Shown here one piece after another: positions 2,960-42,730 of a stretch of 64,000 nucleotides of DNA. A model generated the notes under the pieces. It made no database searches. It was given only the letters and a program-made list of their open reading frames with translations, and was not told where the DNA came from. The DNA comes from a bacterium. Lineage in GTDB: Bacteria > Patescibacteriota > Microgenomatia > UBA1400 > UBA12108. The number at the start of each line of letters is the position of its first letter. The first letter of the stretch is position 1. The DNA is taken from positions 2,847 through 66,846 of the forward strand of contig JBDRPO010000004.1 in NCBI GenBank assembly GCA_043827085.1, in the 5' to 3' direction. The position numbers and the translations under genes were made by a program.

Positions 2960-2970
2960 CAGGTATTGGT

Positions 2971-3106
2971 TGGTCAGACTGCAACTCCCAAGTTAGTAAT
3001 CAACCTGTCGTCAGAAGGTCTGTCCTGCTCAGGAAACCCCGAGCTTGTCGAGGGGTGTTTAGTCGACTTCAATATACAAACAGGAGACTAGGACAGACCT
3101 TAAAGG
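2971..3106. repeat. MITE-like palindromic repeat, family A, full-length copy (~135 bp) between rpmH and rnpA
   Basis: Near-identical copy at 34613-34752 and an internally deleted copy at 17097-17160. Arms GGTCTGTCCTG and CAGGACAGACC form an inverted repeat. Confidence 0.8.
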
Positions 3107-3118
3107 TATAATACGAAT

Positions 3119-3439
3119 ATGATCTCCCGCTCTCACAAATTCCCTCTCCGCACCCAGTTTCTCTCTTTTCGTGCCGCGTCCTCTCAAACCGCCACTCCCC
3201 ATCTTCGCCTCCTCACATCACCCCATACTCCCAGTAGACTCTCTGTAATTGTTCCCCTTAAAGTTAACAAGCGCGCCGTGGTTCGTAATCACCTCAAGCG
3301 CCTAGTTTACGATGTGGTCTGGAAAATTCTTCTCGATAAAAATATCGACTGCGTGATCATGTCCAAACCTCTCGCTCTCACCAAAGGCGACCCCACCGAC
3401 AAATTAATCCTTTCGGAATTATCGAGCCTTCATGTATAA
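3119..3439 (+). CDS. rnpA: Ribonuclease P protein component
   Basis: RnpA RNR-type motif (KRAVVRNHLKRL), ~106 aa, positioned between rpmH and yidD. Confidence 0.85.
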   Translation: MISRSHKFPLRTQFLSFRAASSQTATPHLRLLTSPHTPSRLSVIVPLKVNKRAVVRNHLKRLVYDVVWKILLDKNIDCVIMSKPLALTKGDPTDKLILSELSSLHV

Positions 3440-3650
3440 AATCTACCGTCGCCTCTCCACTTTTCTAAAGTCGTTCACCCGCAATCTCGGTCTCTCAACG
3501 GGCCATTGTCGGTACGTTCCCACCTGTTCTCTTTATGCTAAACAAGCTTTTACCAAACATGGTTTGTGGAGGGGCGCTTGGTTATCTACCCAAAGACTGT
3601 TAAAATGTCACCCATGGTCTAAAGGTGGTTACGATGCACATCAGGAGTAA
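3432..3650 (+). CDS. yidD: Membrane protein insertion efficiency factor YidD
   Basis: 72-aa protein with the conserved CRYxPTCS..A and HPWSKGGYD motifs. It overlaps the rnpA stop. Confidence 0.85.
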   Translation: MYKIYRRLSTFLKSFTRNLGLSTGHCRYVPTCSLYAKQAFTKHGLWRGAWLSTQRLLKCHPWSKGGYDAHQE

Positions 3651-3700
3651 TAACTCCTGAGAAATGCCTCCAGATACGAAGTAATCTGAGAGGCCCCCGA
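3650..3700. repeat. Short hairpin repeat, family D (CTGAGAAATGYCTCCAGAYACGAAGTARTCTGRGAGGCC)
   Basis: Second copy at 6715-6765, which sits in frame inside the flippase-like gene. Confidence 0.7.
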
Positions 3701-4452: not shown

Positions 4453-4905
4453 ATGTTAGCCACCGATATTAAAAAGATTGAAGAGCTTCTTCAGCTTTTT
4501 GACATTACGCCCGACCAAATCAAGATTGACGAAACTGATGAAGCAGTCACCATCACCGTTGATCAAAGCGAACTCGAAGCCGGCCGCCTAATTGGTCGCT
4601 TTGCCTCTACCCTCGACTCTCTTCAGTTGATTATCTCGCTTATGCTCAATAAAGGCGATGTTCACCGCCACATTCTTTTAGATGTTGCCGGCTACCGCGC
4701 TCGTCGCTTGACCACCCTCGAGACTATGGTTGAAAACGCCAAACAACAAGTGAGAAATATTGGTGGTGCCTGCGCCCTCCCGCCCCTTTCCGCAACCGAA
4801 CGCCGCCAAGTTCATTTTATGCTTCAAGATGATGCAGAATTCACTAGTTACTCCGAAGGCTACGGGCAAGATAGGCGCCTATTTATCGCTCCCAAAACTA
4901 TCTAG
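4453..4905 (+). CDS. jag: Jag/KhpB-like RNA-binding protein (KH + R3H domains)
   Basis: Jag N-terminal domain, KH and a C-terminal R3H-like region, following yidC. The start is set to MLATD at 4453, because the ORF-track start at 4414 overlaps yidC. Confidence 0.75.
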   Translation: MLATDIKKIEELLQLFDITPDQIKIDETDEAVTITVDQSELEAGRLIGRFASTLDSLQLIISLMLNKGDVHRHILLDVAGYRARRLTTLETMVENAKQQVRNIGGACALPPLSATERRQVHFMLQDDAEFTSYSEGYGQDRRLFIAPKTI

Positions 4906-6148
4906 TCTCCTAGTCGGTCTGATTATTTTTTTCTCTGCTACCCAATTTGGTTTGCATTTCTGGCCGCTCTCAACTCTTGTTTATGGCATCCGTATTGACT
5001 ATCTCTCCCCCGCCACCTACTTCCTCGACATCCTAATCATTTTTTATTTATCTCTCTCTTCACGCCTACCATCCACACTCTCTCGCTTGCATTCTATTTT
5101 CCCCATTCTCCTTGTCAATCTCATCTTTTCTCAAAACCCCGCCAGCACCCTCTCCTGGTCTCTCCACCTTGTTCTATATTTGTTGTTTATCTCATCTCTA
5201 CCCCTCAGCAGAATACGCAATACTCTATACAAAATATTGCCCATAGCAATCCTCTTCCAAGTCACGCTCGCGCTCACCCAAGTCACCATTGGTCATTCTG
5301 TTGGTGGGCTCATGTACTACCTTGGTGAACGAACCGTGGCTGTGGGTGCGCCTACGATCGCCCTTGCCATGTTTATGGATCATGTTGTACTACGTGCCTA
5401 TGGTACTTTCGGACACCCCAACGTGCTTGCTGGATGGTTAGTAATCGCTTTATTGATTACCATCCAACTTTGGAGACAACGCCAATCGTCAGTGGGGCTG
5501 ACCTTAAAGGACTCGAGCGCGATTAGTGTCCGAAAAGATCCTAGAAGGTCAGACCCAATGGGTACTAAAACCATTTGGGTACCCCTCATCCTCACCACCC
5601 TCGGCATTTTTCTCACTCAGTCTCGCGCCGCCGCCCTCACCCTCTTTGTTTTCATCATTCCTTTCTATCTACTTAAATCCCTCAAATCTCGAGTGATTTA
5701 TTTTGTACTTATTCTAGCTTCTAGCTTCTATCTTCTATCTTCTGGCACACTATTACGTGCGTTCGATCTCTCCTCTTCCGAGCGCCTTACTTTGCAGGGA
5801 GTCTCCCTTAAAGCAATTCAAGCATTTCCGCTTTTCGGCACCGGGGCGCAGGCTAGCATTTCTACCTACCCTACCGTCTCTCCCAATACTCGCCTCCTCC
5901 AACCCGACCACAATTCTCTTACCCTCTTCCTCTCCTGGTTCGGTATTTTTGGTCTCCTAGCCATTTTATACTCTCTGAGATTTCAATTTAAGAATTTGAG
6001 AATTTATGATTTTCGATTTGTCCTCCCACTCCTCCCACTTCTTCTCCTCGACCACTATCTCTTCACTTCCCCCCAAGGTTTATTTGTATTACTTCTATAC
6101 CCTGCCGTTGCGGTAAACTACTCTCATGCTCAAAAAAATCGCGAGTAA
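4760..6148 (+). CDS. O-antigen ligase (Wzy_C)-like polytopic membrane protein; true start uncertain, probably ~4830-4950
   Basis: 10-12 TM helices and an FLTQSRAAALTLFVF segment typical of O-antigen ligase domains. The N-terminal part of the track ORF overlaps jag and is probably not translated. A 75-bp palindromic repeat is inserted in frame at 5500-5578. Confidence 0.45.
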   Translation: MVVPAPSRPFPQPNAAKFILCFKMMQNSLVTPKATGKIGAYLSLPKLSSLLVGLIIFFSATQFGLHFWPLSTLVYGIRIDYLSPATYFLDILIIFYLSLSSRLPSTLSRLHSIFPILLVNLIFSQNPASTLSWSLHLVLYLLFISSLPLSRIRNTLYKILPIAILFQVTLALTQVTIGHSVGGLMYYLGERTVAVGAPTIALAMFMDHVVLRAYGTFGHPNVLAGWLVIALLITIQLWRQRQSSVGLTLKDSSAISVRKDPRRSDPMGTKTIWVPLILTTLGIFLTQSRAAALTLFVFIIPFYLLKSLKSRVIYFVLILASSFYLLSSGTLLRAFDLSSSERLTLQGVSLKAIQAFPLFGTGAQASISTYPTVSPNTRLLQPDHNSLTLFLSWFGIFGLLAILYSLRFQFKNLRIYDFRFVLPLLPLLLLDHYLFTSPQGLFVLLLYPAVAVNYSHAQKNRE

Positions 6149-7343
6149 TACCCTGGCACAACTTGTCGCCAAATTTTTTGGTGCTGGACTCACCCTCTTC
6201 ACCACCTACTATACGATCCGTCTTACCGGTCTCGAACTTTATGGTGATTTAACTAAAATTCTCGTCCTCGTCGCCATAGGTTTTACCGCCATCGATTTTG
6301 GTTTGAACGCCGAAGCAATTCGCTTTGGTACGAGTGAAAGCAAAATGCGTCAAGTTCTAGGTCAAGTTATCCTCGTTCGCCTAGTTCTTTCCGCACTCGT
6401 CATCCTTGCCCTCAATCTCCTTATTTTCTTTTTACCCGGCGGCTATTCGAGTGAAGTTAAATCCATTTTCTGGCTTGGTAGCCTGGCAATCATTTTTCAA
6501 GGCATCTATACCTCAGGCAATGCTTGGTTTCAATCCAATTTGTCATACTGGCGTCCTACCATCTCGGTCGTTGTCGGGTCACTGACCGGCACGGGTCTCA
6601 CCCTCTATTTTCTTGCGACCTCCCCCACCCTCTCTCATCTGGTTCTTGCCAACACTATTGGATACTCCGTCATGGCCCTCTGCTCTGTTTTCATGCTCTG
6701 CACATCAGGCGCGTTAGCGCCTGAGAAATGTCTCCAGACACGAAGTAGTCTGGGAGGCCTTCTCCGTCGCTCCCTAATTCTCGGGCTGATCTTAATTGCG
6801 AGCGTCTTTGCCTCAAAACTGGATACTATCATCCTCGGCATCTTCCGCCTCTCTAGCGAGGTTGGAGAATATGGTTTTGCCTACCGCATTTTTGACGTCA
6901 TTCTCGTCCTCCCAGTATTTGTCATGAATGCCGTCTATCCTCTCTTAATCAAAGATAGTGGAAACTCTTCAAAACTAATCAGTCATACCACAAAAAACAT
7001 GGCCTTCATTGGCGTCGCTACCGCCATTTTTCTCTGGTTTGCCGCCCCCTACGTCAATCTTGTCAAACCCGGCCTCACACTCACAGTAAGCGTCCTTCGT
7101 CTCCTCTCCCTCTCCCTTCCCCTCTTCTATGTGACCGCACCCCTTATGTGGTCTTTGATTGGGGCTCGTCGCGACAAAATAGTACTCAGCGTGTATGTTG
7201 TTGCTGCCCTGGGCAACGGTCTTTTAAACCTACTTTTTATACCCTCTTTTGGCGCCCCCGCCGCCGCCGCGATGACTGGTATTACCGAGTTATTTATTTT
7301 TTGCGCTCTGTTATACTTCTCTCGCAATGATTTGAGAACTTAA
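6126..7343 (+). CDS. Polysaccharide biosynthesis protein / Wzx-like flippase (MOP superfamily)
   Basis: 12-14 TM helices. The N-terminal ASNTLAQLVAKFFGAG..YG motif is typical of Wzx/MurJ-like flippases. A family D hairpin repeat is in frame at 6715-6765. Confidence 0.55.
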   Translation: MLKKIASNTLAQLVAKFFGAGLTLFTTYYTIRLTGLELYGDLTKILVLVAIGFTAIDFGLNAEAIRFGTSESKMRQVLGQVILVRLVLSALVILALNLLIFFLPGGYSSEVKSIFWLGSLAIIFQGIYTSGNAWFQSNLSYWRPTISVVVGSLTGTGLTLYFLATSPTLSHLVLANTIGYSVMALCSVFMLCTSGALAPEKCLQTRSSLGGLLRRSLILGLILIASVFASKLDTIILGIFRLSSEVGEYGFAYRIFDVILVLPVFVMNAVYPLLIKDSGNSSKLISHTTKNMAFIGVATAIFLWFAAPYVNLVKPGLTLTVSVLRLLSLSLPLFYVTAPLMWSLIGARRDKIVLSVYVVAALGNGLLNLLFIPSFGAPAAAAMTGITELFIFCALLYFSRNDLRT

Positions 7344-7348: not shown

Positions 7349-7795
7349 ATGATTACAAAACTATTATTGAATACAGACGGTGGTTCGCGCGGCAATCCCG
7401 GCCCTGCCGCCTACGGCTACGTTATCCGCGACATCTCTGGCCTGCCCGCCGAAGCCTCGGCGAAGGAGGGTACGGGAATCATTCTGGAAAAATGCGGTAA
7501 TTATATAGGCACTGCCACCAACAACACTGCGGAATACGAAGGCCTAATTGCGGGGATCAAATGGGTGCTCACCCACCACCCGCGCGCCATGCTCACAATT
7601 AAAATGGACTCACTCCTTATTGTCAATCAAATCAAGGGCCTATTTAAAGTGAAAAATCCCGGTCTCATTCCAAAATATCAAGAAGTGAGGGGACTATTAT
7701 CTCAACTCCCCAAGTGGTCTATCGAACACACCTACCGTGAAGGCAACTCCCTAGCAGATGAACTAGTCAATCTAACGCTTGATGCACGTACTTAA
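7349..7795 (+). CDS. rnhA: Ribonuclease HI-like (type 1 RNase H fold)
   Basis: DGGSRGNPGPAAYGYV...TNNTAEYEGL...D..L...REGNSLAD pattern (DEDD carboxylates). A family C repeat (GCCGAAGCCTCGGCGAAGGAGG) sits in frame at 7446-7470. Confidence 0.7.
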   Translation: MITKLLLNTDGGSRGNPGPAAYGYVIRDISGLPAEASAKEGTGIILEKCGNYIGTATNNTAEYEGLIAGIKWVLTHHPRAMLTIKMDSLLIVNQIKGLFKVKNPGLIPKYQEVRGLLSQLPKWSIEHTYREGNSLADELVNLTLDART

Positions 7796-10908: not shown

Positions 10909-11640
10909 ATGACTATTTTTGAACTCGCCGCTTCTACTCGCACGCTCTTTGGCCGGAAAACCAAACAGCTCAGGAAAAAGGGAATCGTCCCAGCGAACAT
11001 CTTTGGCAAAAAAATCAAATCCCTCGGCATAGAGATCGAAAAAGGGATTCTTCTAGACACCATGCGTAAAGCCGGCGAGACAGGCTTGATCCATCTCAAG
11101 ATCAAGGGTGACGATAAAACCCACCCCGTCCTCGTTTCTGGCTACGCTCAAGATCCAGTAACCGGCGACATGCTCCACGTCGATTTCCACGAAGTTGATC
11201 TTAAACAAAAAACCAAAGCCATGGTTCCTGTCAAAACCGTGGGCGTTTCTCCCGCAGTCGACACAGGCAACATCTTGGTTATGTTCAAAAATGAAATTGA
11301 AGTTGAAGCCCTTCCCACCGACCTCCCCGATGTCATTGAAGTTGATATTTCGGGGCTTGCCGAAGTTGGAGCCCATATTTTAGCGAAAGATCTCAAAGTT
11401 GACCGCTCCAAAGTTACGCTCGATATCGAGGGAGATGCACAAATAGTTGCCATCCAAGAGCCAACCAAAGAAGAAGTTGTTGTCCCCGCTGCTCCAGCCG
11501 AGGGCGAGGAAGCCGCTCCAACCGAGGGTGAGGAAAGCAAACCAGCCGAGGGCGAAACTAAACCGGAGGCTAAAGAAACCAAGAAAGAAGACTTGTCCGC
11601 CGAAGCCAAGGCTAAGGCGGGACCTAAGGCTGAAAAATAG
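10909..11640 (+). CDS. rplY: 50S ribosomal protein L25 / general stress protein Ctc
   Basis: N-terminal L25 beta-barrel (LFGRKTKQLRKKGIVPANIFG) plus a low-complexity E/K/A-rich C-terminal tail. GGAGG ribosome-binding site 8 bp upstream. Confidence 0.85.
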   Translation: MTIFELAASTRTLFGRKTKQLRKKGIVPANIFGKKIKSLGIEIEKGILLDTMRKAGETGLIHLKIKGDDKTHPVLVSGYAQDPVTGDMLHVDFHEVDLKQKTKAMVPVKTVGVSPAVDTGNILVMFKNEIEVEALPTDLPDVIEVDISGLAEVGAHILAKDLKVDRSKVTLDIEGDAQIVAIQEPTKEEVVVPAAPAEGEEAAPTEGEESKPAEGETKPEAKETKKEDLSAEAKAKAGPKAEK

Positions 11641-17096: not shown

Positions 17097-17160
17097 TTGT
17101 TCGGACCGCAGTTCCCAGGCTAGTAAACAACAAGCCGTCAGAAGGTCAGACCTTATTGGA
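17097..17160. repeat. MITE-like repeat family A, internally deleted copy, abutting the VanW-like stop codon
   Basis: Matches the left arm and right end of the 2971-3106 and 34613-34752 copies (CCGTCAGAAGGTCAGACCTTATTGGAATT). Confidence 0.7.
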
Positions 17161-17161
17161 A

Positions 17162-18934
17162 TTATTGTGCTCCCGTTCCTCGCAAAAACACGCTTGCCCA
17201 AGGTCTGTACGTCGTCGAGAACGTTTTGTCCTGAATAGTTTCCCCATCTCGCACTACCTTGTACTCAAAACTAGCCTTCGCTCCCGCTGCCGCCCAGTCT
17301 ATTTGTTTCGTCGTCCCTGCAGGAAGTGAAGGATCATCTTGGTAAATTGTTGGGAGGGGAGGGGTAATTCCCCAAACTTTATGGTTCTCAATCGTTGCCA
17401 CTCGCCCGTCGCTCGTTCCATAAATCTCGATCACTAAATGTAATGCCTTGGGATCATTAATTGTCTGAATCAGAATATGCCCCGGCGTATCGTTTTTAAA
17501 CCGGAAATCTTTAGATGGTGCAATCACCGTCGCGTCGACCCCTGGCTTACTATCGAGTTCATAATAAGACACTCGGTACGCGTGTCCCCAGCGCTCGATT
17601 ATCGGCAGTCCTGCGCTTATTACAGCTCGAAACATAGTGGTCGATACTTGGCAAAGTCCCCCGCCATCCCCCAGGACCGTCCGGCCAGCCGAAATAATAT
17701 ATGCTGGTCGATACCCCGTTGCCGAGGACACCTCTCCCACCATTTTATTAAAACTAACTTCCTCTCCAGGCGCAAACAAAGTGCTATTGATGCGCGACGA
17801 GGCAAGTGCCACATTATAAATCCGATTCGGGATGGAATGTTGGTAATACGACTCGCCCCGCCCGATCCGCTCACGTATCCCTAGTTCATTCACTTTTTCT
17901 GTCGTCACCTTGGGTGGTGTCCTAGTGGCTGCAACCTCTATTGTCTCACTTTTACTCTTTCCCTCAAGTAAATTCTTAATTCCAGTTTGAATCCTCACTG
18001 CCGTCTCCTGATCACCAACAGTTATCCCGTCCCTCCCCGGTGCAAACTCTTTTACCTTTCCCCCAATAAACTCAAATTTTGCGTCCTGAGACTCCTTATT
18101 TAAGCTATCACCAAGTCCCACCACATAACCATTTACTATCGCCATATCCACCTCTTCTATCCCTCCTTCAGTCGAGAGAAAAGGTATTAGTTCTTTCCCA
18201 CCGAGAGAAATTTTTTCATCATCAAGCGTCATCACCATGCTTACTTGTGCCAAAGTCTCCGCTCTTGCCGTCAGCTCGGAGAGCTTCTCACTGGTGAGCC
18301 TCCTCTCTGCAATTTTTGTTGGGACAGCGATATCTTCGCTTCCTAGTTTGCTATAAACACTCCGTATTTCCTGGTCAAACATCTCGCTGTCCAAGACTAC
18401 TCCGTCGCTCCCATTGGTTACCCTTACCTTCTGCCCCACTATCTCAATCGTTGGTTCAACCGGCACGATCTCAATCGCCAAGCTTATTTCATTGATAAGC
18501 CCTTCCATTTTTTCTGTCTTCCCCTCCGCAATTTTGAGTGGGTAGCTTGTTTTCTTATTAATGAGTAAAAGTAAATAGTCTTCAATCTGTACTCGTCGTC
18601 CATAGTGGTAAGCCTCATTTAGTGTGTCATCGACTTCAAAATTAACCGATTCTTTTGGTGTTTCCCAACTGCTCCCATTAAAAACCAACTTCGCTTGATA
18701 ATTTTGAGTAGCCTCCAATATCCTTACTCGTGCCTGCTCTCTGGTCAGTCCAGCAACAGAGACCCCCGCCACCTCGATTCTCGGGTAAAACTTAGTGTGG
18801 TAGGTAAGTCTGGCAACCGCCACAAGTGTCATTATCCCAACAAGCATCCCCAATAAAAAATACCCAACAATCTTCCCGTGCCCCCAACGAAGCCCAAAAA
18901 GCGAAGTAGGGTTAGCTTGTTTCGTTTTCTTCAT
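17162..18934 (-). CDS. VanW-family protein (peptidoglycan-associated, N-terminal TM anchor)
   Basis: C-terminal VanW domain (PGEEVSFNKMVGEVSSATGYRPAYIISAGRTVLGDGGGLCQVSTTMFRAV) and one N-terminal TM helix. Confidence 0.8.
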   Translation of the reverse strand: MKKTKQANPTSLFGLRWGHGKIVGYFLLGMLVGIMTLVAVARLTYHTKFYPRIEVAGVSVAGLTREQARVRILEATQNYQAKLVFNGSSWETPKESVNFEVDDTLNEAYHYGRRVQIEDYLLLLINKKTSYPLKIAEGKTEKMEGLINEISLAIEIVPVEPTIEIVGQKVRVTNGSDGVVLDSEMFDQEIRSVYSKLGSEDIAVPTKIAERRLTSEKLSELTARAETLAQVSMVMTLDDEKISLGGKELIPFLSTEGGIEEVDMAIVNGYVVGLGDSLNKESQDAKFEFIGGKVKEFAPGRDGITVGDQETAVRIQTGIKNLLEGKSKSETIEVAATRTPPKVTTEKVNELGIRERIGRGESYYQHSIPNRIYNVALASSRINSTLFAPGEEVSFNKMVGEVSSATGYRPAYIISAGRTVLGDGGGLCQVSTTMFRAVISAGLPIIERWGHAYRVSYYELDSKPGVDATVIAPSKDFRFKNDTPGHILIQTINDPKALHLVIEIYGTSDGRVATIENHKVWGITPPLPTIYQDDPSLPAGTTKQIDWAAAGAKASFEYKVVRDGETIQDKTFSTTYRPWASVFLRGTGAQ

Positions 18935-18952: not shown

Positions 18953-20461
18953 ATGCCAAAATTTCCTGATCCTACCAAAGACTACGGTGGCACACCCATG
19001 ACTGGCTCTATCGACTTATCTGCCGAAGCATCGGCGAAGGAGGCGGACATCCCCCCCACCCCGCTCTATCAAGCTCCAGAACCGACCGCCGCTCCCACTC
19101 CCGAACCGGCCCCCACACCTGGCAACCAAAGCGCCGGAACACCAGAAAATCAAACTCCCAAATCGTCGATTTCCAGTTCTCCGTTCCGCAATATGATGCC
19201 GATCTTAATCGGAGGTGGTGCCCTCATCCTTTTACTAGTCCTAGGGTTTACCATCGTTCCCAAATTCTTTAAAAAAGCCGAACCCATCACTCTCAACTAT
19301 TGGGGCCTTTGGGAATCAAGCTCCGTTATGCAAACCGTCATTGCCGACTACGAGAGTCAGAATCCAACCGTCAAAATCAACTACACCATGCAGAATATCA
19401 AAAACTATCGCTCGCGCTTTCTCACCGCCGGCACCCAGGGGAGTTCACCCGATATTGTTCGCATTCACAATACCTGGCTTCCCATGCTCAAAAAAAATCT
19501 CGCCCCCGCTCCCGATACAGTACTCACAACCAGTGATCTAAGTAGCTACTACCCCATCGTCCAAAAAAACTTCGTCAGTGGCGGCAAAATCTACGCCCTC
19601 CCGCTTGAAATTGACGGGCTAGCTCTCCTTTATAACGAAGATATCTTTAATGAAGCGGGTGCGACTCCTCCCTCCGACTGGAACACGCTGAGGAAACTTG
19701 CCTTTGACTTGACCAAAATCAACGCCGAAACCAAAATTATCGAACGCGCAGGGGTAGCGCTCGGTACCACCAACAATGTCGAACACTGGTCCGACATCTT
19801 GGGTCTCCTGATCCTCCAAAACTCCGGCAATCCAGGGAAACCCACCGACACTGCCGTTCAAGACGCTCTCACTTTCTACACCATCGTTTCCACCCAAGAC
19901 AAATCATGGGACTCTAGCCAACCCAACTCTGTCTATGCCTTTGCGACCGGTACCGTTGCCATGATCTTGGCTCCGTCCTGGCAAGTCTCCGAAATCAAAG
20001 CTATTAATCCTGATCTCCACTTTAAAGTCGCTCCCGCTCCCGTTTTGCCTTCTGCTAACTATGCCTGGGCTTCATATTGGGGTGAGGCAGTGCCACTCAC
20101 TAGTAAAAATCCTGAAGCTGCCTGGAAATTTATCAAATACCTAAGTACCCCCGAAGTCCTCCAAAAAATGTACGCCGGCGCCAGCCAAATCCGCGCTCTT
20201 GGCGAGCCTTACCCACTCACGAGTCTCAGCAGTACTTTAGCTAGCGACCCACTAGCAGGAGCATATGTTACTCAGGGTCCAAACTATGTGTCCTGGTATC
20301 TTGCCGACCGCACCTACGACGATGGGGTCAATACCGAATTTAGTAAGTACTACGAAGACGCCGTAAACGCCATCAATGATGGTTCGACTGTCGGGAGCAT
20401 CCTCAAAACTCTCGACGAAGGCATAGCCCAAGTTTCCGCCAAGTACCCCGAGGCAAAATGA
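18953..20461 (+). CDS. Extracellular solute-binding protein (ABC transporter substrate-binding protein, family 1-like), orphan
   Basis: N-terminal TM/signal anchor followed by an SBP fold (LNYWGLWESS...DIVRIHNTWLPMLKKNL). A family C repeat is in frame near the N-terminus (SAEASAKEA). No adjacent permease or ATPase gene. Confidence 0.65.
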   Translation: MPKFPDPTKDYGGTPMTGSIDLSAEASAKEADIPPTPLYQAPEPTAAPTPEPAPTPGNQSAGTPENQTPKSSISSSPFRNMMPILIGGGALILLLVLGFTIVPKFFKKAEPITLNYWGLWESSSVMQTVIADYESQNPTVKINYTMQNIKNYRSRFLTAGTQGSSPDIVRIHNTWLPMLKKNLAPAPDTVLTTSDLSSYYPIVQKNFVSGGKIYALPLEIDGLALLYNEDIFNEAGATPPSDWNTLRKLAFDLTKINAETKIIERAGVALGTTNNVEHWSDILGLLILQNSGNPGKPTDTAVQDALTFYTIVSTQDKSWDSSQPNSVYAFATGTVAMILAPSWQVSEIKAINPDLHFKVAPAPVLPSANYAWASYWGEAVPLTSKNPEAAWKFIKYLSTPEVLQKMYAGASQIRALGEPYPLTSLSSTLASDPLAGAYVTQGPNYVSWYLADRTYDDGVNTEFSKYYEDAVNAINDGSTVGSILKTLDEGIAQVSAKYPEAK

Positions 20462-21411
20462 AGTCCGTATCCAAGGGGACCGTCCTTAAAAGGAATTCCC
20501 GGCTGCAAGCCGAGAAGGGCTCGTCGGCGGACGGAAGGACAGTCCCCAATGTAACCCTTTCGATTCTCCAAACACTAAAGTATAGCGATCACTTTGACTT
20601 TCCCCTGACCGCTAGTGAAATCTACACTCGCCTTATTGAGATTAAAGCCTCGCGTTCCCAAATCGAGGCTACTCTTTCCGAGCTTTGCCGCTCAAAGAAA
20701 ATTGGCAAAACCAAAAACTCCTACCATCTCCCCCATCGTGAAACTCTTGTTTCCCGCCGTCTCAAATGCGCCAAACTATCCAAGCCTCTGCTTGCCCGTG
20801 CACGAAAACTATCATCTAAAATCTCACATCTAAAATCTATTCTTGCCATCTACTTGACGGGCTCTCTCGCCGTAGGCAACACTGACAGAGACTCCGATAT
20901 AGATTTGATGATTATTACCAAACCAGGTCGTCTATGGACCACCCGCCTCCTCCTCACTCTCTATACCACTCTACTTAATCTTCGCCGCACTCCACATTCC
21001 CTCAATAATTCAGGCAAGCTCTGTCTCAACCTCTACTTAACTCCAAATGCCTATCTGCTCCCTCCTGATCGAAGGTCACTCTATACAGCCTACGAACTCA
21101 TCCAAGCCGTCCCGCTCCACGATCCTATGGATACTCACTCCGCTCTCCTGTCCGCCAACTCTTGGATTCACAATTACCTGCCCAATGCGATCACAGGGTC
21201 TGACCTTGAAGGAAGTGCCCAACCCCGCCCTTACAGCGAGCGGGGAAGGTCAGACCCTATCGGAAACTTACTTGAATCTCTCGTCTATCATCTGCAATTT
21301 CTCTACATGCGCCCCCGCATCACTCGCGAATATGTGACCAAAGACTCTGCCTTCTTCCACCCCCACAATCCAGGCGAAATTGTAATAAATAAGCTTTCTA
21401 GGCTAATTTGA
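20458..21411 (+). CDS. Nucleotidyltransferase-domain protein (winged helix + Pol-beta-type NTase)
   Basis: GSLAVGNTDRDSDIDLMII is the G[SG]x9-13Dh[DE] NTase motif. The N-terminus carries an in-frame 84-bp family B repeat (20470-20553) and a second repeat at 21205-21250. Confidence 0.5.
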   Translation: MKSVSKGTVLKRNSRLQAEKGSSADGRTVPNVTLSILQTLKYSDHFDFPLTASEIYTRLIEIKASRSQIEATLSELCRSKKIGKTKNSYHLPHRETLVSRRLKCAKLSKPLLARARKLSSKISHLKSILAIYLTGSLAVGNTDRDSDIDLMIITKPGRLWTTRLLLTLYTTLLNLRRTPHSLNNSGKLCLNLYLTPNAYLLPPDRRSLYTAYELIQAVPLHDPMDTHSALLSANSWIHNYLPNAITGSDLEGSAQPRPYSERGRSDPIGNLLESLVYHLQFLYMRPRITREYVTKDSAFFHPHNPGEIVINKLSRLI

Positions 21412-21756: not shown

Positions 21757-22326
21757 ATGTTCTACACCATTTCTTCCATTGGTCCCGTCTGCCGTAAGCT
21801 GCATGCCGCAGGCTGTAAGCTGGTCCTCGCGACCGGCTTCTTTGACCTCCTCCACGCCGAGCACATTAAGTTTTTAGCGAAAGCCAAAGCCGCCGGCGAT
21901 ATCTTAATTGTCGCCGTCGAATCCGACGAACGAGCTCGGGTACTAAAAGGGGAGGGACGCCCCATCGAGCCCCAACCAGTTCGTTGTCAACATCTCCTTG
22001 ATCTCCGTAGCCCAGGGTCCGACCTGCTAAGGAGACGACCAATGGGAGTGTTTAGTCGAGCCCGCTCAGCGGGTGAGACCAGGTCGGACCCTCAAAGCAC
22101 ATTAGTTGATTATGTAATTTCTCTCCCCCCCGATTTCAACAACTTCGCCTCCTACGACTCCCTTATGTCTGCCGTTCGCCCACAAGTCTACGCCGTCTCG
22201 GCCCACACTTCTCACCAGAAAAGTAAAGATTTTCTCGTCGAAAAATATGGAGGTAAACTCCTTGTCGTCCATGACTTCAATCCTGCTATCTCCACCACCC
22301 AAATTATTCAAAACACTAGAATCTAA
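21757..22326 (+). CDS. Cytidylyltransferase-like nucleotidyltransferase (RfaE domain II / glycerol-3-phosphate cytidylyltransferase-like)
   Basis: N-terminal GFFDLLHAEHIKFL (HxGH nucleotidyltransferase motif). An ~85-bp palindromic insert (GGGTCCGACCTG...CAGGTCGGACCC) is in frame at 22013-22100. Confidence 0.55.
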   Translation: MFYTISSIGPVCRKLHAAGCKLVLATGFFDLLHAEHIKFLAKAKAAGDILIVAVESDERARVLKGEGRPIEPQPVRCQHLLDLRSPGSDLLRRRPMGVFSRARSAGETRSDPQSTLVDYVISLPPDFNNFASYDSLMSAVRPQVYAVSAHTSHQKSKDFLVEKYGGKLLVVHDFNPAISTTQIIQNTRI

Positions 22327-22349: not shown

Positions 22350-23156
22350 ATGTTTGAAACCTATATCTACGCTCCTTTCTTCAATATTCTCGTCGGTCTC
22401 TATGAGATCTTGGGTGGAATCTCTCCAGACCTGGCCGACATGGGTATTGCGGTCATTATTTTCTCGATAGTTGTTCGTATTATCATGTTCCCACTTACCA
22501 TCATGGGTGAACGCTCCGAAGAAGAAAAGCGGAAGATCACCACAAAAATTGAAGAACTAAAACGCACTTACTCTCACGAACCAGTAAAACTCCGCGCCGA
22601 GATCAAACTCGTCATGCGCGACAACTTTAAACGAGTTTTCGCGACCACTTTTGAGCTCTTTGTGGGTCTCGCCATCATTCTCATGCTTTATCGCATCTTC
22701 ACGACCGGCCTTGAGGGTGCCGACTTCTATCTCCTCTACGACTTTATCCCTCGTCCAGACCACATTAACTTGATGTTTCTCGGCAAATACGATCTTAGCC
22801 ACACCAACAACACCCTCAACCTCATCCAGTCCATCATGATCTGTGTGGTTGAGGTTTTGTCCGCTCTCCGCTCTCCCTTTCCCGTTTCCCGGAAAGAAAA
22901 AATCCTTCTTCAACTTGTTCTCCCCGTCGGCTCCTATATTATCTTTATGTTTCTCCCCGCCGGTAAAAAAATCTTTCTGATTACTTCCCTCGCCTGGTCT
23001 GCCGTCTACCAATCAATCAGACTCATCCAAGATTGGGGTAATAAACTCTTAACTCGCTTCACACCAACTATTCAGACTGCAATTCCCACACCAGTTAACA
23101 ACGCGCCGTCAGAGGGTCAGACCTTGACGGAAGCGCCCACCCCGACCTCAAAATAA
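22350..23156 (+). CDS. Second YidC/Oxa1-family membrane insertase paralogue
   Basis: APFFNILVGLYEILG...GIAVIIFSIVVRIIMFPLT is the hallmark YidC TM1-2 region. The C-terminal ~20 aa come from a palindromic repeat (23093-23156). Confidence 0.7.
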   Translation: MFETYIYAPFFNILVGLYEILGGISPDLADMGIAVIIFSIVVRIIMFPLTIMGERSEEEKRKITTKIEELKRTYSHEPVKLRAEIKLVMRDNFKRVFATTFELFVGLAIILMLYRIFTTGLEGADFYLLYDFIPRPDHINLMFLGKYDLSHTNNTLNLIQSIMICVVEVLSALRSPFPVSRKEKILLQLVLPVGSYIIFMFLPAGKKIFLITSLAWSAVYQSIRLIQDWGNKLLTRFTPTIQTAIPTPVNNAPSEGQTLTEAPTPTSK

Positions 23157-23237
23157 ATCAGGAGGGAGGGTCTGACCCTATGGGTACTAGAGACCATCGA
23201 GCTTGCAATCCATCATTCGTGTTAGAATATCTATGCT

Positions 23238-26818: not shown

Positions 26819-28755
<1,937 letters not shown>

Positions 28756-28764
28756 CTTACTAAA

Positions 28765-28845
28765 GGACTGTCCTTAAAAGGAATTCCCGACCGCAAGTCA
28801 AGAAGGGCTCGCCAGCAGGCGAAAGGACAGTCCTCATTGGATAAC
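28765..28845. repeat. Palindromic repeat family B (GGACTGTCCTTAAAAGGAATTCCCG...CGAAAGGACAGTCC) immediately after the groEL stop
   Basis: Near-identical copy at 20470-20553. Shorter derivatives at 35440-35478 and 44290-44330. Confidence 0.75.
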
Positions 28846-28919
28846 GGTCAGACCCCACAGGTTACGATTTCTAAGTTGTTCTACTTGCACTCCCATTCTA
28901 TTCATGTCATAAATAGATT

Positions 28920-32352: not shown

Positions 32353-32483
32353 TCTTGTCTGATATTTCCATCAAGCCTGAAGGTATGCTATCCTACTTTC
32401 TGGCATTATTCCACCCCGGTATTCCACCCCGGGTGTGTTAGCCTTGTAGTTTAGAGTTTTTTCATTATTGGTATACTCGAATC

Positions 32484-33161
32484 ATGCCAATCAGGAAAGC
32501 CCCACTCGTTACAGGAGAGTATTACCATATATATAATCGTGGCATCAATCGGCGCCGGACTTTCACTGCCGAGAATAATTATCGAGATTATAATCGCGCC
32601 ATTCAAACCCTTGTCTACTATCGCCCCACAACCAATAAATTGAGATACTCCCATTTCCTAGCTAGGCCCAAGGACGAACAAAAAGACATTCTAACCAAAC
32701 TAGCAGAATCACCCCATAGAGTTACAATCATTGCCTACTGTCTCATGCCAAATCATTTTCACCTTCTCTTAAAACAAGAGGAAGATGGGGGGATCTCCCA
32801 GTATTTAGCCGACTTTCAAAACAGTTACACCAAATACTTCGACTCCAAACATAAACGTTCAGGCGCTCTTTTTGACCGCCAGTTTAAAGCAGTACTCATG
32901 GAATCTGAAAATCAATTGCTCCACTTGACTCGCTATATTCATCTCAATCCCTATTCATCCAATCTAGTTACAAATGATCAAATCGCTTCTTATCCATATT
33001 CATCACTACCTGAGTACTTATCAGGCAACTATCATCTCGCCAATCCAGGGGTAGTGTTGGATATCAATCCTCGCCGCTACGAGTCATTCGTCCTAGACAA
33101 TGCTGACTACCAACAGCAATTAGAACGTCTCAAACACGTCAGTCTCGATCTAGAAGTATGA
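32484..33161 (+). CDS. IS200/IS605-like HuH Y1 tyrosine transposase (REP-associated tyrosine transposase / RAYT-like)
   Basis: N-terminal YHIYNRGINRR, HuH motif HFHLLL and a catalytic Tyr in RYIHLNP. 225 aa, larger than IS200 TnpA, as in RAYT-type proteins. Confidence 0.7.
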   Translation: MPIRKAPLVTGEYYHIYNRGINRRRTFTAENNYRDYNRAIQTLVYYRPTTNKLRYSHFLARPKDEQKDILTKLAESPHRVTIIAYCLMPNHFHLLLKQEEDGGISQYLADFQNSYTKYFDSKHKRSGALFDRQFKAVLMESENQLLHLTRYIHLNPYSSNLVTNDQIASYPYSSLPEYLSGNYHLANPGVVLDINPRRYESFVLDNADYQQQLERLKHVSLDLEV

Positions 33162-34606: not shown

Positions 34607-34612
34607 AGAAGC

Positions 34613-34752
34613 TGGTCGGACTGCCACTCCCAAATTAGTAATTAACCTACCGTCAGAAGGTCTGTTCTGCTCAGGAGATCCTGGCCGAAGGCCAAGACCT
34701 TTAGTCGACTTTAACATACAAGCGAGAGACCAGGACAGACCTTATTGGAATT
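34613..34752. repeat. MITE-like palindromic repeat family A, full-length copy after pyrH
   Basis: Aligns along its whole length with 2971-3106. Confidence 0.8.
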
Positions 34753-35299
34753 TTCCCGAGATATACCCCATCGGGTTCATCATTTTATTTCCCTGCAGCA
34801 CCTCAAAATGTAGGTGTGGTCCAGTGGTCCACCCGGTCATTCCGACTGTCCCTATCTCTTCTCCTCGGCTAACCTTATCCCCTGGTTTTACCCTCACTTT
34901 GTTCAAGTGTGCATACAAACTAGACATCGTACCATTGTGCGCAATCCGGGCGTAGTGTCCATATCCCACTCTCATTTCCTCGACCTCAATGACGATTCCC
35001 GCGTCCATCGCCAGTACCGCCGTCCCTATGGGTGCACGCAAATCCACTCCTGGGTGGAGTAGGTGATATCCTTGCGACATTCCGAGTGTAACCACCAGGG
35101 GGAATTGATACTGAGTTTGGGTGGTGATGACAATAGCTTCGTTAGCTCCATTTTGAGCTGATTGTGCCATAGCGTAGTCAAACGCATGAGTAGGGGAGAT
35201 CGCGATAGACAAAGCCATCGCCACCCCAGCCATCTGGACTCCGACCGCGCGGTGTGCTGAGTTTTTCTTGAATATCTGCCATTTATGTACTGACTTCAT
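34742..35299 (-). CDS. M23-family metallopeptidase (LytM-like), secreted
   Basis: HPGVDLRAPIGTAVLAMDAG..V.......GYGHYARIAH....SLYAHL and HLHFEV motifs (HxxxD / HxH). Signal peptide after MKSVHKWQIF. Confidence 0.8.
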   Translation of the reverse strand: MKSVHKWQIFKKNSAHRAVGVQMAGVAMALSIAISPTHAFDYAMAQSAQNGANEAIVITTQTQYQFPLVVTLGMSQGYHLLHPGVDLRAPIGTAVLAMDAGIVIEVEEMRVGYGHYARIAHNGTMSSLYAHLNKVRVKPGDKVSRGEEIGTVGMTGWTTGPHLHFEVLQGNKMMNPMGYISGKFQ

Positions 35300-35493
35300 A
35301 TTTGGGGTTAATCTAGCCCCTGAAGTGCGTGATCCTAGCAAAGAATGTCGATTTGTCAATCAAATTTTGTTTTTTTCCCAGGCAGAAACCAAGTAATCCC
35401 AGAGGTAAATACATAAATATATCAAAGTATATCAAAATGTCTTAGAGGACCGTCCTTAAGACGAAAGGACAGTCCTCGTGGTACATTAGAGGT

Positions 35494-36567
35494 ATGCAAT
35501 CTTTCGCCATCAATGGTTTTGGCCGCATCGGCCGCCTAGCCACCCGGGTTTGGTGGCAATATCATCGTGAAGAACTCAAACTCTCAGCCATCAACACTTC
35601 AGGTTCTATGGATATCACCGGTTGGGCACATCTCCTCAAGTACGACACCACCTATGGCCTTTTCCCTGGAGAAATTGCTTTCGAGTCATACCAATCCGCC
35701 AAAGATGCCACCGACACAGATCCCCTCATCGGATACCTAATATTTGATACACAATACAAGGTACCTGTCTTCGCCCAGCGAGATCCTGCTAAAATCCCCT
35801 GGGGAAAGTATGAAATCGAGGTCGTTATCGAATCAACTGGCGCCTTCACGAGTGGTGAGAAAGCCAAGGCCCACCTCACAGGTGGTGCAAAACAAGTTGT
35901 CATCTCAGCCCCAGCCAAGGGGGGTAATGTCCCGACTAGCGTTATTGGTGTCAACGAAGAAAAAATCGTCAGCGCCGACCACCAGAACACAATCGCTGTT
36001 CTCAATAACGCCAGTTGTACTACCAACTGTGTCGCCCCCGTCGCCCTCGTCATACAAGAGCGCCTAGGGATCGCCAAAGCCGCCATGACCACCATCCATA
36101 GTTATACTGACGATCAAAACCTCCAAGATGCCTCCCACAAGGACTTGCGCCGCGCTCGGGCAGCCGCCCAGAATATTGTCCCTACTACGACTGGGGCTGC
36201 CATTGCGACTACCGAAACGATACCCGAACTCAAAGGTTTATTTGATGGGATTGCCCTCCGCGTCCCCACAATTACCGGCTCTCTCACTGACTTTAGCTTT
36301 GTCGTGAAGAGAAAAACCACGGTCGATGAGGTAAATAACTTCTTCCGCCAGGCCACGCTCATGGATAACCTATCCGGCATTCTCGCGGTCACCGACGAGC
36401 CAATCGTCTCCTCCGACATCATTGGCCACCGCGAATCCGCCATTGTTGACCTCGCCCTCACTCAAGTCATTGACGGTGATCTAGTTAAAGTTTTTGCCTG
36501 GTATGACAACGAATGGGGCTATTCAAACCGTCTTGTTGAAACTGTGATCGACATCGCCAACGCCTAA
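35494..36567 (+). CDS. gap: Glyceraldehyde-3-phosphate dehydrogenase (type I)
   Basis: INGFGRIGR N-terminus and the active-site ASCTTNC motif. Confidence 0.95.
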   Translation: MQSFAINGFGRIGRLATRVWWQYHREELKLSAINTSGSMDITGWAHLLKYDTTYGLFPGEIAFESYQSAKDATDTDPLIGYLIFDTQYKVPVFAQRDPAKIPWGKYEIEVVIESTGAFTSGEKAKAHLTGGAKQVVISAPAKGGNVPTSVIGVNEEKIVSADHQNTIAVLNNASCTTNCVAPVALVIQERLGIAKAAMTTIHSYTDDQNLQDASHKDLRRARAAAQNIVPTTTGAAIATTETIPELKGLFDGIALRVPTITGSLTDFSFVVKRKTTVDEVNNFFRQATLMDNLSGILAVTDEPIVSSDIIGHRESAIVDLALTQVIDGDLVKVFAWYDNEWGYSNRLVETVIDIANA

Positions 36568-37325: not shown

Positions 37326-37353
37326 ACACTACCCGAAGTCAACATCAAAAATG

Positions 37354-37426
37354 AGGCCCGAGGGAGATTCGAACTCCCGCATAAGAGTTTTGCAGACTCT
37401 CGACTTGACCTCTTGTCTATCGGGCC
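37354..37426 (-). tRNA. tRNA-Cys (anticodon GCA)
   Basis: Manually folded: acceptor GGCCCGA/TCGGGCC, D arm with GG, anticodon stem AGAGT/ACTCT with loop CTGCAAA, T arm GGGAG-TTCGAAT-CTCCC, discriminator U73. 73 nt, no encoded CCA. Confidence 0.9.
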
Positions 37427-37447
37427 ACAGCAGGTATTATAACCCAA

Positions 37448-37474: not shown

Positions 37475-37500
37475 CCATTCCTCAATTACTATCTCCAATC

Positions 37501-42721: not shown

Positions 42722-42730
42722 AACACCATT

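What the first reader, a model, noticed from the sequence alone, without database searches (positions are those of the whole stretch)
2971..3106. Family A: a ~135-bp MITE-like element with internal-deletion derivatives at gene boundaries
Two full copies (2971-3106 after rpmH and 34613-34752 after pyrH) align end to end at ~85% identity. They carry inverted arms GGTCTGTCCTG / CAGGACAGACC plus an outer GGTCAGAC motif. The copy at 17097-17160 retains only the left arm and the extreme right end (CCGTCAGAAGGTCAGACCTTATTGGAATT). That is the classic internal-deletion pattern of non-autonomous elements. All three sit exactly at stop codons of housekeeping genes.
Basis: seen in the sequence. Interest (0 to 1): 0.6.

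Follow-up and report, generated by a model that had tools for sequence, protein, structure and literature searches.

The report
RAYT-type palindromic repeats in a CPR genome
The repeat is real: it belongs to a large family of small hairpin-forming, apparently mobile DNA elements in tiny-genome groundwater bacteria (Microgenomates), related to the known REP/REPIN repeats, and unusual because copies also sit in frame inside protein-coding genes.

Summary
Copies A (2970-3112) and B (34612-34754) align end to end, at 76-79% overall and 83-87% in the flanking blocks. C (17097-17164) is a short form, and a fourth copy, D (23069-23190), was missed.

Family A is composite. It has a conserved ~50-nt 5' module, then a long hairpin whose 13-nt arms (AAGGTCWGACCTT) are themselves palindromes, then a short tail (YTATNGGTAC). 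The same arms close at least six more hairpin elements in the window, with four other interior types. Four of these lie in frame inside ORFs.

Related Microgenomates contigs carry 16 more module-1 copies. Orthologous sites are empty, single-armed, or filled with different interiors. There is no target-site duplication and no terminal inverted repeat.

Identical palindromes flank homologues of the window's RAYT-like Y1 transposase in other CPR contigs. The hairpin is supported by covariation and is strand-specific: every one-sided change gives G.U. Every oriented copy lies on the C-rich strand.

Best reading: REP/REPIN-like non-autonomous elements of a CPR RAYT family, with RPE-like in-frame insertions. 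This is not a classical MITE. It is a new variant of a known kind. The cognate transposase was not found in this window.

The parts
2970..3112 (+). Family A copy A. Module 1 is 2970-3016, left arm 3015-3027 (AAGGTCTGTCCTG), type i interior 3028-3088, right arm 3089-3101 (TAGGACAGACCTT), tail 3102-3112. It lies between rpmH and rnpA.
34612..34754 (+). Family A copy B. Module 1, arms at 34657-34669 and 34731-34743, type i interior and tail. It lies between the convergent pyrH and M23 peptidase genes, and the tail holds the M23 stop codon. It is orthologous to the L027 copy at 1297-1435. The site is empty in L149.
17097..17164 (+). Family A copy C, the short form. Module 1 is 17097-17143, a single arm 17142-17154 (AAGGTCAGACCTT), then the tail. 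It is antisense to the flanking LeuRS and VanW-like genes.
23069..23190 (+). Module 1 plus a hairpin (arms 23113-23125 and 23167-23179, type v interior) plus the tail GGGTACTAG. It forms the C-terminal tail and stop codon of the second YidC-like ORF (22350-23156).
5493..5568 (+). Hairpin element E (same arms, type iii interior, tail CAATGGGTACTA). It lies in frame inside the O-antigen-ligase-like ORF 4760-6148.
20475..20551 (+). Hairpin element D2a (arms GGACCGTCC/GGACAGTCC, type iv interior). It lies in frame at the N-terminus of the nucleotidyltransferase-like ORF 20458-21411 and is absent from L049, L149, L150 and L151.
21195..21270 (+). Hairpin element F (arms GGGTCTGACC/GGTCAGACCC, type ii interior, tail TATCGGAAAC). 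It lies in frame in the same ORF and translates as GSDLEGSAQP..RSDPIG. The orthologous copy is present in L148.
22014..22092 (+). Hairpin element G (arms GGGTCCGACC/GGTCGGACCC, type i interior, no module 1). It lies in frame in the cytidylyltransferase-like ORF 21757-22326. Relatives carry a type ii interior, other palindromes, or nothing at the same loop.
28763..28868 (+). Hairpin element D2b (type iv, arms GGACTGTCC/GGACAGTCC, 28763-28839), followed by a solo arm GGTCAGACC with a tail (28844-28868). It lies directly after the GroEL stop codon.
35445..35483 (+). Mini hairpin H (GAGGACCGTCCTT-AAGACGA-AAGGACAGTCCTC plus tail GTGGTAC), upstream of the GAPDH gene. It is absent from L027 and L149.
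32484..33161 (+). RAYT-like Y1 (HUH) transposase gene. It has the motifs YHIYNRG, the HUH motif MPNHFHLL, and RYIHLNP. It is flanked by a different palindrome (CACCCCGGGTGTG, 32408-32454), so it belongs to the right enzyme family but is probably not the cognate enzyme of Family A.

Best explanation
Family A is a composite, non-autonomous palindromic repeat of the REP/REPIN type. It belongs to a superfamily of hairpin elements that populate Woesebacteria-like Microgenomates (CPR) genomes.

Anatomy. The unit recognised is a 13-nt self-complementary arm, AAGGTCWGACCTT or its variant AAGGACWGTCCTT. It can form a 5-bp stem with a CWG triloop. Two arms in inverted orientation enclose one of about five conserved, internally structured interiors. 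Family A adds a conserved ~50-nt 5' module that is conserved in sequence, not in structure. A short 3' tail follows.

Inferred mechanism. The elements are moved, removed and exchanged as single-stranded top-strand DNA by a RAYT-type HUH/Y1 transposase. This would resemble IS200/IS605 'peel and paste' transposition, which leaves no target duplication and needs no terminal inverted repeats.
- Excision, or slippage between the two arms, would leave one arm. That is the short form, copy C.
- An existing arm could then be reused as a site for a new interior.

Survival. In these compact genomes, insertions survive only in the few bases between genes or where they stay in frame in tolerant protein loops, where they are translated.

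Shown here: the anatomy, multi-genome dispersal, presence/absence at orthologous sites, interior swapping, absence of TSD and TIR, strand-specific hairpin conservation, strand orientation, and the same palindromes flanking RAYT genes in other contigs.

Inferred, not shown: that a RAYT actually moves these elements, the single-stranded-DNA route, and reuse of arms as targets.
For: 1. Dispersal.
- The window holds 4 module-1 copies and 9 two-armed hairpins.
- The arm motif occurs 17 times against 1.4 expected.
- Related Microgenomates contigs hold 16 more module-1 copies next to unrelated genes.

2. Mobility, from syntenic loci.
- Window 38929 and L005 are empty, while L027 and L009 are filled directly after the stop codon with no duplication.
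- Window 42725 and L009 are empty, while L005 is filled.
- The B site is empty in L149, H is present only in the window, and D2a is absent from four relatives.

3. Modularity.
- The C site carries module 1 with a single arm, a type iii interior or a type v interior, or is empty.
- The G site keeps the same unusual C/G-centred arms but holds type i in the window and type ii in L150.

4. Link to RAYT.
- The window encodes a Y1_Tnp/RAYT-like protein.
- Its homologues are typically flanked on both sides by a lineage-specific palindrome.
- In L132 that palindrome is GAGGGTCWGACCCT, the Family A arm.
- In L125 and L139 it is CAGCAAGGACCGTCCTTGCTG, the arm of D2a and H.
- In L142 the flanking repeat carries the tail CCCCTATTAGGTACTATAG, like the tails of D and E.

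5. Structure of the type i element.
- 96.5% of cells are paired, against 31-44% when the partners are slid.
- 8 pairs change on both sides, and 0 of 500 shuffles reach the observed score.
- The outer stem is paired in 104 of 104 cells. All 6 one-sided changes give G.U on the top strand, which would be C.A on the other strand.

6. Orientation.
- All 10 oriented elements in the window are on the + strand, although only 36 of 59 genes are.
- In 15 of 15 loci the module-1 strand is the C-rich strand.
- RAYT genes show no such bias, 41 against 46.
Against: - The window's own RAYT gene, and its 81%-identical homologue L061, are flanked by a different palindrome (CACCCCGGGTGTG), not by Family A arms. 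No cognate enzyme is therefore shown for this genome.
- L132 and L125 come from more distant CPR lineages, and module 1 is absent from all 80 RAYT loci.
- The classical REP hallmark, a conserved GTAG next to the hairpin, is not present.
- REPs are by definition extragenic, whereas about half of the window's hairpins are intragenic.
- If the usual rule holds that the leading strand is G-rich, the folding strand lies on the leading-strand template. This is the opposite of what is described for IS608 (my recollection of Ton-Hoang et al. 2010; not checked here).
- Compensatory changes in DNA palindromes can arise from template switching without selection for a hairpin.
- No recent, strain-level transposition event was observed. 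PyrH returned only the source contig.
Confidence: 0.6

Rival explanations
1. The hairpins are primarily host RNA elements: 3'-end mRNA stabilisers, unconventional terminators or RNase processing sites. They would be selected at the RNA level and would spread only incidentally.
For: - Most intergenic copies lie within 0-12 nt of the stop codon of a co-oriented upstream gene.
- The stem tolerates only G.U changes on the strand that is usually the sense strand.
- The hairpins after GroEL in L148 and L149 are followed by T-runs.
- Orthologous copies persist across species whose proteins are only 65-85% identical.
Against: - No Family A copy has a T-run, and none scans as a terminator or promoter.
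- There is no Rfam match.
- At the C site (window, L049, L054, L150) and in L005, the copies are antisense to both neighbouring genes yet keep the same strand relative to GC skew. L017 is likewise antisense to its neighbours.
- Several copies are inside ORFs and stay open in frame.
- The conserved module 1 has no supported fold.
Confidence: 0.17
2. It is a classical MITE: a deletion derivative of a DDE-transposase insertion sequence, mobilised in trans through terminal inverted repeats.
For: - It is small, has many copies and carries an inverted repeat.
- A short form exists.
- Sites are polymorphic for presence and absence.
Against: - The inverted repeat is not terminal on the left, because 50 nt of conserved module lie outside it.
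- The element ends are direct, not inverted, copies of each other.
- No target-site duplication is seen at filled versus empty sites.
- Among the window ORFs scanned against Pfam or NCBIfam (about 30 of 59), no DDE transposase was found.
- The arms match palindromes that flank Y1 transposase genes.
Confidence: 0.05
3. The elements are ancient, now immobile relics. Their palindromic shape would be kept by quasipalindrome template switching and gene conversion among copies. Differences between genomes would reflect deletions and conversions, not transposition.
For: - Many copies are orthologous between species (B and L027a; L027b and L009; the C site in four genomes; F and L148).
- A is more similar to the non-orthologous L027a (87.7%) than B is to its orthologue L027a (78.7%). 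This fits conversion or constraint.
- No strain-level insertion was seen.
Against: - Sites empty in some relatives and filled in others occur in both directions on any plausible tree.
- The same few interior types recur at unrelated sites and in unrelated genes across genomes.
- The one-sidedness of G.U changes runs against the direction of the compositional bias.
Confidence: 0.13

Closest known systems
REP/REPIN elements with RAYT (REP-associated tyrosine transposase) genes. Sources: Bertels & Rainey 2011, PMC3116915; Bertels et al. 2017, PMC5581495.
   Same: - Short palindromic units occur singly or as inverted doublets that form a long hairpin.
- There is no TIR and no TSD.
- A Y1/HUH transposase gene is flanked by the same palindrome, shown here in L132 and in L125/L139.
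- Copies are long-lived and vertically inherited at orthologous sites.
- There are several palindrome families per genome.
   Different: - The host is the CPR. The paper searches run here returned no description of REP-type repeats in that group.
- The arms are 13-nt self-palindromes with a CWG centre.
- There is no conserved GTAG.
- Long, structured and interchangeable interiors replace a short spacer.
- A conserved 50-nt 5' module is present.
- Many copies are intragenic and in frame.
- Orientation is strictly to one compositional strand.
- The RAYT in this window is flanked by another palindrome.
Rickettsia palindromic elements (RPEs). Source: the review PMC10969869, which cites Ogata et al.
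   Same: - They are palindromic elements of ~100-150 bp found both between genes and in frame inside unrelated protein-coding genes.
- They add a peptide segment without destroying the ORF.
   Different: - The sequences and the host phylum are unrelated.
- No transposase family has been linked to RPEs, as far as I recall.
- Here one protein loop carries different palindromes in different lineages.
IS200/IS605-derived non-autonomous elements (PATEs) and the IS608 single-strand transposition mechanism. This comparison rests on my own knowledge and was not checked here.
   Same: - A Y1 HUH enzyme acts on hairpins recognised on one strand.
- There is no TSD and no TIR.
- Excision is precise.
- Orientation is linked to the replication strand.
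   Different: - No TnpA or TnpB partner is present.
- There is one long hairpin, not separate left-end and right-end hairpins.
- Under the usual skew rule, the folding strand is the C-rich strand, the opposite of IS608.
Classical bacterial MITEs, such as Correia/NEMIS elements (PMC10969869).
   Same: - They are similar in size and have short internal-deletion variants.
- They sit at gene boundaries.
   Different: - They have terminal inverted repeats and a TA or other target duplication. Neither was found here.

Membership tests
REP/REPIN-RAYT system | The repeat unit is a short imperfect palindrome that occurs many times in the genome. | tested here: met
   The arm AAGGTCWGACCTT is self-complementary. 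GGWCWGWCC occurs 17 times in 64 kb against 1.4 expected.
REP/REPIN-RAYT system | Two units in inverted orientation form a hairpin (the REPIN). | tested here: met
   The window has 9 two-armed hairpins. The outer stem is 100% paired across 8 copies, with 3 covarying pairs. The spacer is far longer and more structured than in described REPINs.
REP/REPIN-RAYT system | A RAYT gene is flanked by the same palindrome. | tested here: inconclusive
   Met in other CPR contigs: L132 has GAGGGTCWGACCCT on both sides, and L125/L139 have AAGGACCGTCCTT on both sides. Not met for the only RAYT gene in this window, which is flanked by CACCCCGGGTGTG. The rest of the source genome could not be read.
REP/REPIN-RAYT system | The repeats are extragenic. 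| tested here: not met
   E, F, G and D2a lie inside ORFs in frame, and D forms a C-terminal tail. L057 has a full Family A copy inside a 756-aa ORF.
REP/REPIN-RAYT system | A conserved GTAG tetranucleotide lies next to the hairpin (enterobacterial and Pseudomonas REPs; from my own knowledge). | tested here: not met
   There is no conserved GTAG. A tail YTATNGGTAC follows the right arm instead.
RAYT protein (Pfam Y1_Tnp PF01797; NCBIfam NF047646) | The protein matches the family model and has the HUH and catalytic Tyr motifs. | tested here: inconclusive
   PF01797 scores 39.6 bits against a cut-off of 23, which is met. NF047646 scores 56.5 bits against a cut-off of 80, below the equivalog threshold. 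The motifs HFH and RYIHLNP are read directly from the sequence. This is a divergent RAYT-like clade with more than 7000 relatives.
Classical MITE | Terminal inverted repeats are present. | tested here: not met
   The left end (AAGGTTGGTCAGACTGC) and the right end (GGTCAGACC-YTATNGGTAC) are direct copies, not inverted ones. The inverted repeat is internal.
Classical MITE | A target-site duplication is present. | tested here: not met
   Filled versus empty comparison at window 38929 against L027, L009 and L005 shows no duplication. The available relatives are distant, so junctions are resolved only to within 3-4 nt.
Rickettsia palindromic elements | The sequence is homologous to the RPE families. 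| not tested
   No RPE sequences were available in the tools. The resemblance is in behaviour only (PMC10969869).
Intrinsic terminator | A G+C-rich hairpin is followed by a T-run. | tested here: not met
   No terminator-like sites were found at A, B or C.
Any Rfam RNA family | The covariance model matches at the gathering score. | tested here: not met
   The only hit in the window is tRNA-Cys. Nothing is meaningful at E<10 around copy A.

The most novel reading that the evidence does not exclude
CPR bacteria may carry a RAYT-driven 'cassette' system. A fixed 13-nt palindromic arm would act both as the transposase recognition hairpin and as a reusable docking site. Different structured interiors would then be pasted into, removed from and exchanged at the same genomic positions, always on one replication strand. 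This would include positions inside essential protein-coding genes, where the elements are translated and repeatedly rewrite surface loops. The conserved 50-nt module would be a new cis-acting part of that machinery.
Probability: 0.25. Interest if true: 0.75.

Novelty: new variant of a known kind. Interest (0 to 1): 0.6.

Why it matters
CPR/Patescibacteria genomes are tiny and tightly packed, and are usually regarded as poor in repeats. Here one 64-kb stretch carries at least 13 copies of one palindrome superfamily, about half of them inside genes.

If the RAYT link holds:
- it extends the REPIN-RAYT relationship to a major uncultured radiation;
- it shows that such elements can live inside proteins, as RPEs do in Rickettsia;
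- it offers a natural system for asking how single-strand HUH transposases choose a strand and a target.

There are also practical consequences. These repeats probably break metagenome assemblies: many RAYT contigs are only 1-3 kb long. They also inflate protein-length variation in CPR gene catalogues.

Tried and rejected
- Rfam, whole window at gathering score and copy A at E<10: nothing.
- Sigma-70 promoter and terminator scans over A, B and C: nothing inside the elements. The idea that module 1 is a promoter was dropped.
- Consensus folding of 18 module-1 copies: only a weak 6-bp helix with no covariation. Module 1 is conserved as sequence, not as structure.
- Coding test of module 1: indels in its variable centre and stop codons in different frames in intergenic copies rule out a conserved peptide. 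The in-frame continuity of copy A with rpmH is not shared by copy B.
- A profile of the type i peptide searched against 5.8 billion proteins: no hit.
- Two viral-contig scans with element patterns: only chance matches.
- The genome-collection scan gave about 59 hits, most of them chance. Real copies were separated from chance hits by BLAST extension.
- Search for a TSD or a target motif: inconclusive, because relatives are too distant. The 'AGGTAT' on both sides of A is part of the element ends, not a duplication.
- RNA-level removal of the in-ORF hairpins was considered and rejected. All in-ORF copies keep the frame and lack stop codons, which removal would not require.
- An origin of replication between dnaA and rpmH was expected but not seen. 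GC skew does not switch there.

Full report
**1. The observation**

- A and B align over their whole length: BLASTN gives 78.9% over 133 nt, E = 9e-21 within the window, and global identity is 76%.
- The 5' 69 nt are 87% identical and the 3' 52 nt are 83% identical. The centre differs.
- The flanks do not align, so this is a discrete element.
- The repeat finder added a fourth copy, D, at 23069-23190.
- The window is 46% G+C.
- The only Rfam hit in the window is tRNA-Cys.

**2. Where it comes from**

The gene content is dnaN, dnaA, rpmH, rnpA, two yidC genes, LeuRS, a VanW-like gene, GroES/EL, pyrH, GAPDH and a LAGLIDADG ORF. Together with the nearest homologues (Microgenomates, Woesebacteria, Collierbacteria), this places the window in a Woesebacteria-like Microgenomates bacterium of the CPR. 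The cytidylyltransferase protein of the window is on record from an NCBI 'MAG: bacterium' contig of 69.7 kb.

**3. Anatomy**

Lining up all copies shows three parts.
- Module 1 is about 50 nt: (A)AGGT-TGGTCAGACTGCAAyTCCCA, 4-6 variable nt, then AGTAAACAACGyGCCGTCAGArG. It is conserved in sequence. Its centre carries indels, so it does not code for a peptide. It has no supported fold.
- The hairpin has arms (A)AGGTCTGACC(TT) and (AA)GGTCAGACC. Each arm is itself a palindrome.
- The tail is YTATNGG(T/A)A(C/T).

The arms are shared by hairpins that lack module 1. The window holds nine two-armed hairpins (A, B, D, E, F, G, D2a, D2b, H) and solo arms at 17144 (copy C), 28846, 44302 and 53470. The motif GGWCWGWCC occurs 17 times against 1.4 expected.

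The interiors fall into about five conserved types:
- type i: A, B and G;
- type ii: F;
- type iii: E;
- type iv: D2a and D2b;
- type v: D.

**4. Copies elsewhere**

One scan of 185,579 species genomes with a 19-nt pattern returned 59 loci, about the number expected by chance. BLAST and nhmmer showed that 13 of them carry the whole module. These come from Microgenomates or Woesebacteria MAGs, some mislabelled 'Pseudomonadales'. L150 adds one more copy. In total there are 16 copies outside the window, next to unrelated genes. None were found in 80 RAYT loci from more distant CPR or in viral contigs.

**5. Mobility**

Several loci are syntenic with the window.
- At the SH3/PEGA-UbiA junction, the window (38922-38929, genes overlapping) and L005 are empty. 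L027 and L009 carry a Family A element that starts right after the stop codon, with no duplication.
- At 42725, the window and L009 are empty and L005 is filled.
- The pyrH/M23 site (copy B) is filled in the window and L027 and empty in L149.
- H is present only in the window.
- D2a is an 84-nt in-frame addition that is missing in L049, L149, L150 and L151.

**6. Modularity**

The LeuRS/VanW site (copy C) has several states:
- module 1 plus one arm in the window and L049;
- module 1 plus a type iii hairpin in L054;
- module 1 plus a type v hairpin in L150;
- nothing in L149 and L151.

The cytidylyltransferase site (G) keeps the same unusual C/G-centred arms in the window and L150, but holds type i in one and type ii in the other. 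L049 also has type ii.

Because each arm is a palindrome, the two arms are direct as well as inverted repeats of each other. Deletion between them therefore gives exactly the single-arm form. C cannot, however, be traced to an A-type parent.

**7. Copies inside genes**

E, F, G and D2a lie inside ORFs and keep the frame with no stop codon. D supplies a new C-terminus for YidC2. L057 has a full Family A copy inside a 756-aa ORF.
- The nucleotidyltransferase-like host is 276-277 aa without inserts and 317 aa in the window.
- Among 120 homologues of the cytidylyltransferase, the basic form is 156 aa with no insert. One loop carries, in different lineages, GSDL..RSDP (this family, with one arm or two, types i and ii), AGPGL..RPGP, TPGV..TPGV, TGKxENxKTG and others.
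- For two homologues whose contigs were read, L148 and L149, the DNA of these inserts forms hairpins with related arms.
- Additional in-ORF hairpins occur in L148 and L149.

This behaviour is that of Rickettsia palindromic elements (PMC10969869).

**8. Structure and strand**

For eight type i copies, RNAalifold gives a 13-bp outer stem, two inner helices and 26 pairs in all.
- 96.5% of cells are paired, against 31-44% when partners are slid.
- Eight pairs change on both sides, and 0 of 500 shuffles reach the observed score.
- The outer stem is paired in 104 of 104 cells. Its six one-sided changes all give G.U on the module-1 strand.
- By hand, over all hairpins, nine transition mismatches are G.T on that strand and three are C.A. 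Two of the three C.A cases lie at the arm centre and one at the outermost pair.

The window has an extreme GC skew of about -0.19. It is the same in genes on either strand and does not switch at dnaA/rpmH. That bias would favour C.A mismatches on the top strand, so the excess of G.U argues for selection on a fold of the top strand.

**9. Orientation**

- All ten oriented elements in the window are on the + strand, while 36 of 59 genes are.
- In 15 of 15 loci the module-1 strand is the C-rich strand, including L025, which lies beyond dnaN.
- At the C site and in L005, the copies are antisense to both neighbours yet still on the C-rich strand. L017 is also antisense to its neighbours.
- RAYT genes show no such bias, 41 against 46.

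**10. The transposase link**

The window encodes a Y1_Tnp protein with HUH and Tyr motifs. It matches the RAYT model below cut-off. A metagenome scan gave 588 relatives, of which 80 were kept. Many are flanked on both sides by one lineage-specific palindrome.
- In L132 that palindrome is GAGGGTCWGACCCT.
- In L125 and L139 it is CAGCAAGGACCGTCCTTGCTG, the D2a/H arm.
- In L142 the flanking repeat ends in CCCCTATTAGGTACTATAG, the tail seen in D and E.
- The family has more than 7000 members, and the named ones are mostly Patescibacteria.
- The window's own gene and its 81% homologue L061 are flanked by CACCCCGGGTGTG(TTAGCCT..). This motif occurs again at 53432. The cognate enzyme of Family A must therefore lie elsewhere in the genome, if it exists.

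**11. Conclusion**

The finding is real and larger than reported. It is best filed as a REP/REPIN-like, RAYT-associated palindromic element family with RPE-like intragenic copies. It is not a classical MITE, since it has no TIR and no TSD, and it is not a terminator or a known RNA.

Three points are inferred and not shown: movement by a RAYT, the single-strand route, and reuse of arms as docking sites.

The main open points are:
- the missing cognate RAYT in this genome;
- the role of module 1;
- why the folding strand is the C-rich strand.

Noticed in passing
window 1-64000; L025 1-8000: GC skew of the + strand is about -0.19 across the whole window. It is the same in + and - genes (-0.187 and -0.199) and does not change sign at the dnaN-dnaA / rpmH-rnpA junction, where an origin would be expected. 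In L025, which continues beyond dnaN, the skew keeps the same polarity for about 5 kb and then drops to about 0 in a lower-GC stretch.
   Followed up: partly
window 32408-32454 and 53432-53465; L061 1-35 and 730-765: A second palindromic repeat, (TT)CCACCCCGGGTGTGTTAGCCTKTTAGTTTAG, lies upstream of the RAYT-like gene (partly duplicated there) and again upstream of ORF 53502-54212. It flanks both sides of the 81%-identical RAYT in L061. It is probably the cognate REP of the window's RAYT. At 53466-53485 it abuts a solo Family-A-type arm (AAGGTCTGACCTTGCAGG).
   Followed up: partly
window 21757-22326 (protein loop around residues 80-115): One loop of a conserved cytidylyltransferase is a hot spot. 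The 156-aa basic form has no insert. Different Microgenomates lineages carry different in-frame inserts at the same position (GSDL..RSDP, AGPGL..RPGP, TPGV..TPGV, TGKxENxKTG and others). Where the DNA was read (L148, L149), the inserts form hairpins.
   Followed up: partly
window 32366-32380; L125 about 9918; L139 about 9643: The 13-mer GTCTGATATTTCC occurs just after the stop codon of the gene upstream of the RAYT gene in the window. It also occurs about 83 nt upstream of the distantly related RAYT genes of L125 and L139. It loosely resembles the start of module 1 (GTCAGACTGCAATTCCC). This could be chance or a shared left-end sequence.
   Followed up: no
window 3635-3695 and 6699-6759: Another two-copy repeat (84% identical, 61 nt, two small hairpins). 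One copy is just upstream of yidC and the other is inside ORF 6126-7343. It is unrelated to Family A.
   Followed up: no
window 7443-7470, 11594-11621, 19017-19044: A three-copy 28-nt repeat, TGYCYGCCGAAGCNNNGGCNAAGGMGGS, with hairpin potential. It was not examined.
   Followed up: no
window 36564-37325 (- strand), next to tRNA-Cys 37353-37426: A free-standing LAGLIDADG homing-endonuclease-like ORF (Pfam LAGLIDADG_1 and LAGLIDADG_3) lies between GAPDH and tRNA-Cys. L027 and L009 show no match to window 36576-37500 in tblastx, so it may be an insertion.
   Followed up: no
window 3101-3121: The tail of copy A runs into TATAAT (3104-3109), 9 nt before the rnpA ATG (3119). This could be a -10 box for a leaderless or nearly leaderless rnpA transcript. 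The scan found no matching -35 box.
   Followed up: no
L003, L005, L009, L015, L017, L027 (GenBank CAYILS01, CAYFZD01, CAZDRB01, CAYGFS01): These MAG contigs are titled 'uncultured Pseudomonadales bacterium'. L005, L009 and L027 are gene-for-gene syntenic with this CPR window and have similar G+C content and skew. All six carry module 1. The organism labels look wrong.
   Followed up: partly
L148 10930-11041; L149 16226-16341; window 28755-28840: The position directly after GroEL carries a hairpin in every genome examined. Each has different arms and a different interior. In L148 and L149 the hairpin is followed by a T-run, like an intrinsic terminator. This hints that terminators and these palindromic elements may interconvert or share sites.
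   Followed up: no
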